A stretch of DNA of 64,000 bases from the human T2T-CHM13v2.0 reference genome, Homo sapiens. Position 1 is the first letter of the stretch. Each line of letters opens with the position of its first letter. Where the stretch lies: the NCBI RefSeq assembly GCF_009914755.1, contig NC_060931.1, one strand, 5' to 3'. Positions 5,460-9,226 of this stretch are shown piece by piece. The notes under the pieces were generated by a model. The model saw nothing but the letters and a program-made list of their open reading frames with translations, searched no databases and was not told where the DNA came from. The position numbers were made by a program, and so were the translations under genes.

Positions 5460-5720
<261 letters not shown>

Positions 5721-6710
5721 TAATTTTAAGATTGTTTTCAATTATCTGAAAACAATTCTATATTACATCAAAAACATGCTTTCTCCTACTGGCTCTATTC
5801 CCACTCTCTTCTTTCAAGTGATGAATTGTGATCAAATATTACATCATAGAGAGTTTTCACTTGGGGAATTTGGCTGCAGACTATTAGATATGCAATCTAA
5901 TGAGCATTATGGTTCTGTCCAAGTTGCATATCTAACACTCCCAAGTAGCCAGATATACCTCCCTCACCTAATGTCTTTTTTATACACCCCATTCTAAGCT
6001 TGATAACATAGAAAATAGCCATATTTATCCCCAGCACTCACTTCATTCCTGCCCATAGACATGTCTGCACATCTCTAGGCACTCTTTTAGATACATCTCC
6101 TCTGATGCACATAAACAAATCAAGCAAATGATTTTATGGGAAGGAGAAAGATGAACAAGTAGGTCACCACAGAAATCCTGCAGGTAAGTGACAAGAGTGA
6201 AGTACTGTTAGGGCAGAAGGTGAATGGTCAATATATCAGTGCTAATTATTTTCATATTTTCTAACATTTCTAGATAAACTTTAGCTTCACAAGTCTGTAA
6301 AGTAATATTCTCCAGATTCTAGTTGGTCAGTGTTGTAGAGGTAATAATTTCTAATACTTAATATGGTTTATTTGAAGTAGACAAATTACATTGATTTCAA
6401 GGTAGCCTATTTAAAACTGGTCATGTTTCCAATTGTAAGTTTCTGTTTTTACTTATTTCTAATATAGAAACAGGAATACCTTTGCTTTGCCTTTGCTTTG
6501 CTTTCAAGAATGATCTATGTTTTGTCCAGGAGGTATTTTAGAAAAGAAAAAGAGAAATCCTTCAAACTTTTTGCAAGTTTATTAAATTTCAAATAAATCT
6601 GTAGAATATTTTGAATTGTTTGAAGATGGACACTTTAAAAACACAAAAATTACCCTGTTGGTCCTCTCATTTTGAGTGAAAGTTTGCCTTTGCCCTTTAT
6701 GTACTTTGTG

Positions 6711-7277
6711 GTTTTGTTTTTTTTTAATTTTTTTAAGATGAGGCCTTGCTTTATCGCCCAGGTTGGAATACAGTGGCACGATCACAGCCCACTGCAGCCT
6801 CAAACTCCTAGGCTCAAGCAATCCTCCTGCCTTAGCCTCTGAAGTAACTAGGACTATAGGTGTGCACCACCATACCTGGCAAATTATATTTTTTGTAGAG
6901 ATGGGGTCTTGCCATGTTACCCACGCTGGCCTCAAACTCCTTGGCTCAATGAATCCTCCCACCTCAGCCTCCCACACAACTTTCACAGTCTTCTCCTTTT
7001 CTTTCCCTTCCTCATAAGAAAACCAACAGTGTGGACCTGGAAAATAGCTCTCTGGTCAAAAAAAACCTCTCTGCCCTTCACTCAACAAAAACATAGCCTT
7101 TCCTTCTCTGGGCCAGGCACTAGCCCACAATCTCCATTAGACTCTTCATCCTTCTATAGGAATGATCAAGATTGTGAAAGACACCATGACAATTGCCAAA
7201 ATTGCTGGGATTCTAGGCACGAGCCAGTTAATCGCCAAAATTGCTGGGATTCTAGGTGTGAGCCATCATGCCCAGCC
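6711..7277 (-). mobile_element. AluJ-type SINE split by a templated insertion
   Basis: Alu sequence to 6974, resuming at about 7204; TSD tactttgt at 6702-6709 and 7278-7285. Confidence 0.9.
6970..7203 (+). pseudogene. Duplicated fragment of PIK3CG intron 7/exon 8 (copy of 8868-9115) embedded in an Alu
   Basis: Direct alignment by eye; 7160-7203 matches exon 8 nt 9072-9115 at 41/44. Confidence 0.95.
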
Positions 7278-7299
7278 TACTTTGTTTATTTGTTGGGGC

Positions 7300-7440
7300 A
7301 CATAGTTTGGCAGCTAAGGGCAAGTTATTTAAGCTCTTTAAGGCTTTGTTCCTTCACCTGTAGAATGGGAATAATAATCCTATCCACATTATAGGGCAAT
7401 GCAAGGATCACACATAAAGCAGCAATCAGTATATATTCGC
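7300..7440 (+). mobile_element. MIR fragment
   Basis: gggcaagttatttaa...ttccttcacctgtagaatgggaataataat MIR core. Confidence 0.65.
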
Positions 7441-7577
7441 TATCATTATCATCATTGTAGTTACTGCTGCTTTGGTTATTGCCTTTGATAAATATGTGTA
7501 AGGATGTTAGAGTTTTGTGGTAAAATAGACACAAGTAAAGCAGAACATTTGAACAGAGAGGTGATGAACCACAGCTA

Positions 7578-8078
<501 letters not shown>

Positions 8079-8130: not shown

Positions 8131-8250
<120 letters not shown>

Positions 8251-8932
8251 TAGTTACCTCAGGAGATGAATAGACCTCTCAGCTCGTTTGAAAAGATTAT
8301 AATTCCTTCAGTGTAGACATTTAATAACTGAAAAATCATAATCTTAATCTGTATAAAAAGGAAGAAAACATTTCTATGCTGGTGAATGTGACTCTCAATT
8401 TAATGTGGATATATTGAAAATACATGAATGCATGATTCAAATCCCTGTGACTATACATGGAAATGATTTTAGTAAGAACTTGTTCCCTCCTCTTTCCTTC
8501 TCCATCTCTAAACTTTAACTCATTTCATTACACATTAAACTTTTCTCTCACAAAAAACATTTAAAAATAGATGGAAAGATCTGTCACTTATTTTAGTATT
8601 CCAGAATTCACATTATCAAAGCTATTACACACTCTACTATCAGGTATTTTTATAGACATTCAGCATTAGTTTCAGTCAAACATATGTTTATTCAAGTTTC
8701 TGATCTGAGAACTCTACAAAACCATTTACATTTAACCCTGTAATTTAAAAAAGGAAAAGGCACAGATTGCCATCTGAGGAAGGATATGCTCAGCATATAA
8801 ATGCTTTTATTTATTACTATTCAAAACCAGCCCTTTCCTCTTGTCATTCTGGGATATTGAAAACATATCCCACACAACTTCCATATCCTCCTTCTTTCCT
8901 TTCTATTCCTCATAAGAAAACCAATAGCATAG

Positions 8933-9226
<294 letters not shown>

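What the first reader, a model, noticed from the sequence alone, without database searches (positions are those of the whole stretch)
7160..7257. The duplicate plus the Alu forms a complete candidate poison exon in intron 6
Seen: the copied acceptor is intact (ctcttcatccttctatAG at 7158-7159). The Alu remainder supplies donors AG|GTGTGA (exon 7160-7255, 96 nt) or GT|GTGAGC (98 nt). Intron 6 is phase 0 while the copied exon start is phase 1, so after Gln846 the message reads GAA TGA: an immediate stop before the hinge, DRH and DFG motifs. Inference: inclusion triggers NMD, making this a possible dosage switch or a site for deep-intronic loss-of-function variants in an immune kinase. Aligners could misassign such junction reads as exon 6-to-8 skipping.
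Basis: partly seen in the sequence, partly recalled or inferred. Interest (0 to 1): 0.75.

Follow-up and report, generated by a model that had tools for sequence, protein, structure and literature searches.

The report
Unused-looking pseudoexon in PIK3CG intron 6
A copy of the start of PIK3CG exon 8 landed inside an Alu repeat in intron 6 and forms a stop-containing exon look-alike, but nothing here shows that cells splice it in.

Summary
The sequence observation is correct. Window 6970-7203 is a 90% identical copy (210 of 233 aligned bases) of 8868-9115, which is the last ~200 nt of intron 7 plus the first 44 nt of exon 8. It sits inside an antisense Alu in PIK3CG intron 6. The copied acceptor AG (7158-7159) and two Alu-derived GT donors (7256, 7258) delimit a 96/98-nt pseudoexon. 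After exon 6 it reads ...LILQ-E-stop.

The poison-exon reading is unsupported.
- Both donors are weak. Their U1 duplex energies are -5.2 and -5.4 kcal/mol, against -7.2 to -12.2 for all six real donors.
- In a fold of 6700-7920 both donors are fully paired to an inverted Alu 350 nt downstream.
- Sixteen unannotated AG..GT pairs in the same 35 kb match or beat the candidate at both sites. A pseudoexon with a consensus donor outranks it within intron 6, and all five others translated also contain stops.
- None of the 10 RefSeq transcripts contains it.
- Literature searches pairing PIK3CG with poison exon, cryptic exon or pseudoexon found nothing relevant.

Best reading: a neutral relic of a 25-54 Myr-old templated insertion, silent or spliced at trace level. 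It could become a loss-of-function site if its donor were strengthened. No RNA data could be consulted.

The parts
6705..7281 (-). Antisense Alu, recalled as AluJ-like, flanked by the direct repeat TACTTTGT. It is split by the insert.
   Evidence: Rfam Metazoa_SRP hits at 6733-6880(-), E 1.1e-13, and weakly at 6896-7027(-). The reverse complement of the sense Alu aligns to 6705-6964 and resumes at 7238-7277. The flanks were read. The subfamily name is recalled, not tested.
6970..7203 (+). Copy of the intron-7 3' end plus the first 44 nt of exon 8 (parent 8868-9115).
   Evidence: 210 of 233 aligned bases identical; 20 transitions and 3 transversions; K2P 0.1085. Only these two copies exist in the assembly.
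7140..7159 (+). Copied 3' splice site: pyrimidine tract and AG.
   Evidence: Read. Crude PWM score 5.61 against 4.66 for the parent; 41 of 2248 AGs score at least as high. Pyrimidine fraction 0.78 in both copy and parent, and the longest T run is 2.
7160..7257 (+). Candidate pseudoexon, 96 nt (to 7255) or 98 nt (to 7257). GAA is at 7160-7162 and TGA at 7163-7165.
   Evidence: translation ...LILQE*.
7191..7268 (+). 39-nt tandem duplication spanning the copy/Alu junction (units 7191-7229 and 7230-7268). Unit 1 has no GT.
   Evidence: family D5: 36 nt at 89% identity, spacing 39. Sequence read.
7256..7263 (+). Two overlapping Alu-derived 5' splice-site candidates, with GT at 7256-7257 and at 7258-7259.
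   Evidence: PWM 2.29 and 0.87. U1 duplex -5.2 and -5.4 kcal/mol, which 202 and 176 of 1960 GTs equal or better. p_unpaired 0.00 across 7254-7270.
7603..7921 (+). Sense Alu, the predicted duplex partner that covers the donors.
   Evidence: Rfam hits at 7604-7720(+) and 7742-7889(+). In the MFE structure 7245-7270 pairs with 7635-7610.
8868..9115 (+). Parent segment: the end of intron 7 and the first 44 nt of exon 8 (9072-9202).
   Evidence: and the hub annotation.

Best explanation
The feature is a structurally complete but functionally weak pseudoexon. It is a by-product of an old intragenic rearrangement, not a working poison exon.

Inferred history:
1. About 25-54 Myr ago, a ~230-nt stretch (the end of intron 7 plus the first 44 nt of exon 8) was copied 1.9 kb upstream into an antisense Alu in intron 6.
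2. Short shared sequence at both junctions (TCCCA on the left, CCAAA on the right) points to microhomology-mediated templated insertion.
3. A 39-nt tandem duplication then spanned the 3' junction.
4. A C-to-T change at a CpG of the Alu (GGCGTGAGCC to GGTGTGAGCC) created the AG|GT donor next to the Alu's own GTGAGC.

The outcome is a good inherited acceptor, two weak donors and an immediate TGA. In normal cells it is most likely skipped or included only at noise level. The donors pair poorly with U1 and can be sequestered by the inverted Alu downstream. Any product would be removed by NMD.

Shown here: the anatomy, the frame, the uniqueness of the duplication, the relative site strengths and the predicted duplex. 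Inferred: the mechanism of origin, the age and the lack of use.
For: - The duplication is real and unique.
- The Alu is split, with no Alu sequence lost around the insert: (alignment resumes at 7238).
- Junction microhomology: read, with the neighbouring Alu as proxy for the pre-insertion sequence.
- Neutral-looking decay: 3 of 44 exonic and 20 of 189 intronic positions differ, and all three CpGs of the exonic piece have decayed in the copy.
- Donors are weaker than all six real donors and the annotated alternative donor at 8644 (-5.2/-5.4 against -7.2 to -12.2 kcal/mol). Their PWM scores of 2.29 and 0.87 lie below five of the six real donors, whose range is -0.08 to 8.77.
- Donors are buried in the fold: p_unpaired 0.00 for 7254-7270 (MFE).
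- The candidate is not exceptional. It ranks 60th (96-nt form) and 109th (98-nt form) of 25,487 AG..GT pairs in window 1-35014. Eighteen pairs have both sites at least as strong, and two of those are real exons. It ranks 4th of 1407 pairs within intron 6, behind three pairs ending at 6183 that share a CAG|GTAAGT donor. The five other intron-6 pseudoexons translated also contain stops.
- It is absent from the 10 RefSeq transcripts in the hub table.
- Literature: 0 papers hold PIK3CG with 'poison exon'. Three hold it with 'cryptic exon', all prostate-cancer papers judged by listing only. One holds it with 'pseudoexon', a retinal review judged by listing only.
Against: - The acceptor is inherited from a constitutive exon and scores higher than its parent (5.61 against 4.66).
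- On the PWM sum, three of the six real internal exons rank below the candidate (ranks 260, 272 and 2808 against 60), so strength alone does not exclude use.
- The acceptor has no U-tract (longest T run 2). The hnRNP C block on Alu exons described by Zarnack et al. (PMC3629564, passages) would therefore not cover it.
- The first 44 nt come from a real exon and may carry enhancers. This was not tested.
- The donors are transcribed ~350 nt before their duplex partner, so U1 could bind first.
- NMD targets are under-represented in annotation, so absence from RefSeq is weak evidence.
- The PWM frequencies and the U1 5' end sequence were recalled, not taken from a curated model. MaxEntScan and SpliceAI were not available, and no RNA-seq data were consulted.
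Confidence: 0.7

Rival explanations
1. Latent disease pseudoexon. It is normally silent, but a single substitution that strengthens the donor or weakens the Alu-Alu duplex would cause inclusion. That would give a deep-intronic loss-of-function allele of PIK3CG, relevant only in trans with a second hit because the known disease is recessive.
For: The acceptor is good. The donors are only a few matches short of real ones, so a single substitution could plausibly reach the range of the real donors; no mutant was scored. The stop is immediate and 582 nt upstream of the last junction. Biallelic PIK3CG loss is pathogenic, and a PTC allele shows low mRNA (PMC6761123, passages). Activation of pseudoexons by donor-creating deep-intronic variants is a well described class, as the titles and abstracts listed show.
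Against: No such variant was found in the searches made. The same could be said of the better pseudoexon ending at 6183 and about ten others in the gene. Population variation was not examined.
Confidence: 0.2
2. Regulated poison exon. Inclusion is tuned in myeloid or lymphoid cells to set p110-gamma dosage through NMD.
For: Complete exon anatomy with an immediate PTC. The acceptor escapes the U-tract/hnRNP C logic.
Against: Weak and sequestered donors. Neutral-like divergence of the copy, including loss of all three CpGs. It is not annotated. The gene already has an annotated PTC-introducing 73-nt alternative exon in intron 7 (8571-8643). Nothing was found in print.
Confidence: 0.05
3. Decoy exon. 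The copied acceptor and weak donors engage U2AF/U2 and U1 without productive splicing. This promotes retention or slow removal of intron 6.
For: A strong acceptor is paired with weak donors. The decoy-exon concept itself is recalled from the literature and was not read here.
Against: No data on intron 6 retention. This is purely an analogy.
Confidence: 0.03

Closest known systems
Pseudoexons: intronic AG...GT pairs that look like exons but are not spliced. The class is as reviewed in PMC8819188, of which I saw only the listing and abstract. Their abundance in human introns is recalled.
   Same: Deep-intronic, of plausible exon length, with canonical AG and GT, full of stops, and unannotated.
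   Different: Its acceptor is not a chance match. It is a copy of the acceptor of a real constitutive exon of the same gene.
Alu exons. Zarnack et al. [quoted passage not shown]
   Same: Both candidate donors lie in an antisense Alu. One was created by a CpG C-to-T change, which I recall as a typical route to Alu 5' splice sites.
   Different: The 3' splice site does not come from an Alu U-tract, so hnRNP C competition with U2AF65 is not expected to apply. No junction read is known, so the definition is not met.
Unannotated intronic copies of neighbouring exons (intragenic or tandem exon duplication). Source: Ivanov and Pervouchine 2022, PMC9013439, abstract, Results and passages read. Letunic et al. 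2002 is cited there.
   Same: An intronic sequence ~90% identical to a nearby exon of the same gene, with its upstream splice site.
   Different: Only the first 44 of 131 exon nucleotides were copied. The copy sits two introns upstream, in an intron of a different phase, so it cannot act as a mutually exclusive or substituting exon. It lies in a repeat, and that study filtered out such targets. PIK3CG occurs 0 times in its main text.
Poison exons (NMD-coupled cassette exons) such as SCN1A 20N. I saw PMC11981616 in listing and abstract only.
   Same: Inclusion would introduce a PTC well upstream of the last junction.
   Different: Inclusion, regulation and conservation are all undemonstrated here.

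Membership tests
Poison exon (NMD-coupled cassette exon) | An in-frame premature stop more than ~50-55 nt upstream of the last exon-exon junction when the exon is included | tested here: met
   TGA is at 7163-7165, the second codon after exon 6. It lies 582 nt upstream of the last junction.
Poison exon (NMD-coupled cassette exon) | The exon is actually spliced into transcripts (junction reads, cDNA) | not testable with these tools
   No RNA-seq or EST resource was available. The exon is absent from the 10 RefSeq transcripts in the hub table.
Poison exon (NMD-coupled cassette exon) | The inclusion isoform rises when NMD is blocked, or inclusion is regulated | not testable with these tools
   This needs an experiment or public NMD-inhibition RNA-seq.
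Poison exon (NMD-coupled cassette exon) | Sequence constraint on the exon and its flanks (common in this class but not obligatory) | tested here: inconclusive
   Only copy against parent could be compared. 3 of 44 exonic and 20 of 189 intronic positions differ, and all three CpGs are lost in the copy. This looks neutral, but the numbers are small and there is no outgroup.
Alu exon (definition of Zarnack et al. 2013) | At least one splice site lies inside an antisense Alu | tested here: met
   The donors at 7256 and 7258 lie in the antisense Alu 6705-7281.
Alu exon (definition of Zarnack et al. 2013) | The Alu-derived splice site is supported by a junction-spanning read | not testable with these tools
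   No expression data were available.
Tandem or intragenic exon duplication able to give alternative or mutually exclusive exons | Significant similarity to a neighbouring exon of the same gene | tested here: met
   41 of 44 exonic bases are identical, within a 233-base aligned stretch at 90%.
Tandem or intragenic exon duplication able to give alternative or mutually exclusive exons | The whole exon with both splice sites is copied, in a compatible phase | tested here: not met
   Only 44 of 131 nt and the acceptor were copied. The host intron is phase 0, whereas the exon start is phase 1.
Microhomology-mediated templated insertion (origin of the duplicate) | Short identical sequence shared by donor and target at both junctions, with no target loss | tested here: inconclusive
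   TCCCA at 6970-6974 is shared by the Alu and the parent. CCAAA at the 3' junction is shared by the parent and Alu-type sequence. The pre-insertion Alu is known only by analogy with the neighbouring Alu, and the later 39-nt duplication blurs the 3' junction.

The most novel reading that the evidence does not exclude
A primate-specific hybrid poison exon born in one step. A templated insertion carried the working 3' splice site and first 44 nt of PIK3CG exon 8 into an Alu that supplied the 5' splice site. Because its acceptor has no U-tract, it escapes the hnRNP C surveillance that silences ordinary Alu exons. Opening of the inverted-Alu duplex, for example through ADAR editing or helicase activity in activated leukocytes, would then expose the donor. 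That would couple dsRNA metabolism to NMD-mediated down-tuning of p110-gamma.
Probability: 0.04. Interest if true: 0.65.

Novelty: new member of a known kind. Interest (0 to 1): 0.25.

Why it matters
If the exon were used, it would be a lineage-specific brake on an immune kinase that is a drug target. It would also be a blind spot for exome-based diagnosis of PI3K-gamma deficiency. As it stands, its practical value is modest. It is one of about a dozen intronic sites in PIK3CG where a donor-strengthening variant could make a null allele. Its 44-nt similarity to exon 8 is a small mapping hazard for short junction overhangs. Its origin, an exon's acceptor pasted into an Alu, is a tidy example of how exon-like units can be assembled from unrelated pieces.

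Tried and rejected
They also lie in an external repository.
- Literature searches gave 0 papers for PIK3CG with 'poison exon'. They gave 3 for 'cryptic exon', all prostate-cancer papers judged irrelevant from the listing. They gave 1 for 'pseudoexon', a retinal review judged from the listing.
- PIK3CG with 'nonsense-mediated' and 'splic' gave 21 papers, 20 listed. I opened two. PMC11147767 names PIK3CG only as a down-regulated gene in SF3B1-mutant monocytes, not as mis-spliced. PMC6761123 was used as cited.
- Two multi-term searches could not force PIK3CG. None of the 25 and 10 papers they listed holds the term.
- I considered that the copy might be retro-derived from RNA. I rejected this because it contains intron sequence and has no terminal poly(A).
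- I considered a recursive splice site at 7159/7160. I rejected it because the sequence after the AG is GAATGA, not GT.
- I looked for other donors for the copied acceptor. None within 300 nt scores above -2 in the PWM apart from the two named.
- No outgroup genomes were available. states that the assembly has no relatives held, so presence or absence in other primates could not be tested.

Full report
**Observation.**
- The tract ctcttcatccttctatAG ends at 7158-7159. TAG|GTGTGA puts a donor GT at 7256-7257, giving a 96-nt exon. GGT|GTGAGC puts a second at 7258-7259, giving 98 nt.
- Exon 6 (5568-5714) is 147 nt, in frame, and ends TTA CAG.
- Joining it to 7160 gives ...LILQE*, with TGA at 7163-7165 and five further in-frame stops in the 96-nt form.
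- The annotated CDS has 256 residues after that Gln, with DRH at +100 and DFG at +118. This fits Gln846/D946/D964 if the protein has 1102 residues, a length I recall. The stop lies 582 nt upstream of the last exon junction.

**The duplicate.**
- Window 6970-7203 aligns to 8868-9115, the last ~200 nt of intron 7 plus the first 44 nt of exon 8. 210 of 233 aligned bases are identical. There is a 13-nt difference in an A run and three 1-nt indels.
- The 23 substitutions are 20 transitions and 3 transversions, giving K2P 0.1085. That corresponds to 25, 36 or 54 Myr at 2.2, 1.5 or 1.0e-9 per site per year. The rates are assumed.
- The three exonic differences (7168, 7183, 7187) are all CpG decay in the copy.
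- A search of the whole T2T assembly finds only these two copies.

**The host and the donors.**
- The insert sits in an antisense Alu. Rfam's SRP model hits 6733-6880(-) at E 1.1e-13.
- The reverse complement of the neighbouring sense Alu aligns to 6705-6964 and resumes at 7238-7277, so about 270 nt are foreign to the Alu. The same 8-mer, TACTTTGT, flanks the Alu on both sides.
- The Alu's left piece ends ...CCTCCCA, and the parent shares TCCCA there. The copy ends ...GCCAAAATT, where Alu-type sequence has CCAAAGT. This suggests microhomology at both junctions. The suggestion is an inference, because the pre-insertion Alu is known only by analogy.
- A 39-nt tandem duplication (7191-7229 / 7230-7268, D5) spans the 3' junction. 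Unit 1 reads TAGGCACGAGCC and has no GT. Unit 2 reads TAGGTGTGAGCC. Against the neighbouring Alu's GGCGTGAGCC, the first donor arose by a C-to-T change at a CpG, and the second is the Alu's own GTGAGC.

**Is it a good exon?** I used a position-weight matrix built from recalled, approximate human frequencies, so these values are relative only.
- The acceptor scores 5.61, against 4.66 for the parent. 41 of 2248 AGs in 1-35014 score at least as high.
- The donors score 2.29 and 0.87. 67 and 117 of 1960 GTs score at least as high. Real donors range from -0.08 to 8.77.
- As a pair, the candidate ranks 60th (96 nt) and 109th (98 nt) of 25,487 AG..GT pairs 50-250 nt apart. The six real internal exons rank 1, 8, 9, 260, 272 and 2808.
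- Eighteen pairs have both sites at least as strong as the candidate's. Two of them are real exons.
- Within intron 6 the candidate is 4th of 1407 pairs. It falls behind three pairs that end at 6183 with CAG|GTAAGT.
- A second measure is the duplex energy with the recalled U1 5' end. The two donors give -5.2 and -5.4 kcal/mol. All six real donors and the annotated alternative donor at 8644 give -7.2 to -12.2. 202 and 176 of 1960 GTs are at least as stable as the candidates.
- The five other intron-6 pseudoexons that I translated all contain stops as well. A stop is therefore not distinctive.

**Structure.** Folding 6700-7920 as RNA pairs the split antisense Alu with the sense Alu at 7603-7921 (MFE -484.9 kcal/mol). 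In the partition function every base from 7254 to 7270 has p_unpaired 0.00 and pairs with 7626-7610. The acceptor region sits only in a small local hairpin. Such a duplex would compete with U1. The partner is transcribed ~350 nt later, so kinetics could still allow binding. This argues against efficient use but does not prove it.

**Points in favour of use.**
- The acceptor descends from a constitutive exon.
- Copy and parent have the same pyrimidine fraction (0.78), and neither has a T run longer than 2.
- Zarnack et al. (PMC3629564, passages) showed that hnRNP C blocks U2AF65 at the U-tracts of antisense Alus. This acceptor has no such tract, so that safeguard would not act on it.
- NMD targets are under-annotated.

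**Literature.**
- PIK3CG with 'poison exon' gave 0 papers. With 'cryptic exon' it gave 3, all prostate cancer, judged from the listing. With 'pseudoexon' it gave 1, a retinal review, judged from the listing.
- PIK3CG with 'nonsense-mediated' and 'splic' gave 21 papers. I opened two. PMC11147767 lists PIK3CG only as down-regulated. PMC6761123 reports biallelic loss-of-function disease and low abundance of a PTC allele.
- Ivanov and Pervouchine (PMC9013439; abstract, Results and passages) describe the general class of unannotated intronic exon copies. They removed targets that overlap repeats and do not mention PIK3CG in the main text. Their supplements could not be seen.
- These searches cover only the held open-access library.

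**Verdict.** The object is a hybrid pseudoexon: the acceptor and 44 nt come from exon 8, and the remainder and donors come from an Alu. It was made by an old templated insertion. The NMD logic is sound, but it applies equally to many other pseudoexons in this gene. An annotated 73-nt alternative exon in intron 7 (8571-8643) already introduces a frameshift and stop. With weak, duplex-masked donors, neutral-looking decay and no annotation, I rate silent or trace-level use at 0.7. A latent mutational target gets 0.2, and a regulated poison exon 0.05. What remains open is expression, which needs junction-level RNA data that these tools do not hold.

Noticed in passing
window 8571-8643 (+): The RefSeq alternative 73-nt exon in intron 7 shifts the frame and gives a stop after 8 new residues (...GDKIDGKICHLF*). 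It is an annotated PTC-introducing cassette in the same gene. In the crude PWM its acceptor is very weak (aaaaatag, -8.37) and its donor is CAG|GTATTT (1.54).
   Followed up: partly
window 6035/6059/6079-6183 (+): An unannotated pseudoexon in intron 6 with a perfect consensus donor CAG|GTAAGT (PWM 8.61) and three candidate acceptors. It outranks the finding's candidate within intron 6 and also contains stops.
   Followed up: partly
window 6705-7281 (-) and 7603-7921 (+): An inverted Alu pair ~320 nt apart is predicted to form a long intramolecular duplex in the intron-6 RNA (MFE -484.9 kcal/mol for 6700-7920). It is a likely A-to-I editing substrate. Editing was not checked.
   Followed up: partly
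window 6762-6859 (+): A right-arm Alu-exon candidate in the same antisense Alu: acceptor ...atcgcccag|GTT (PWM 4.40), donor TAG|GTGTGC (2.85), 98 nt, with stops.
   Followed up: no
window 8956-8977 (+) vs 7058-7065 (+): The parent segment carries an A run about 13 nt longer than the copy's A8. This is the largest indel between the two copies. The direction of change is unknown.
   Followed up: no
window 8246-8253 and 9159: The alternative RefSeq exon ends at 8253 and 9158 are not followed by GT. They are probably transcript ends or model artefacts rather than splice donors.
   Followed up: no
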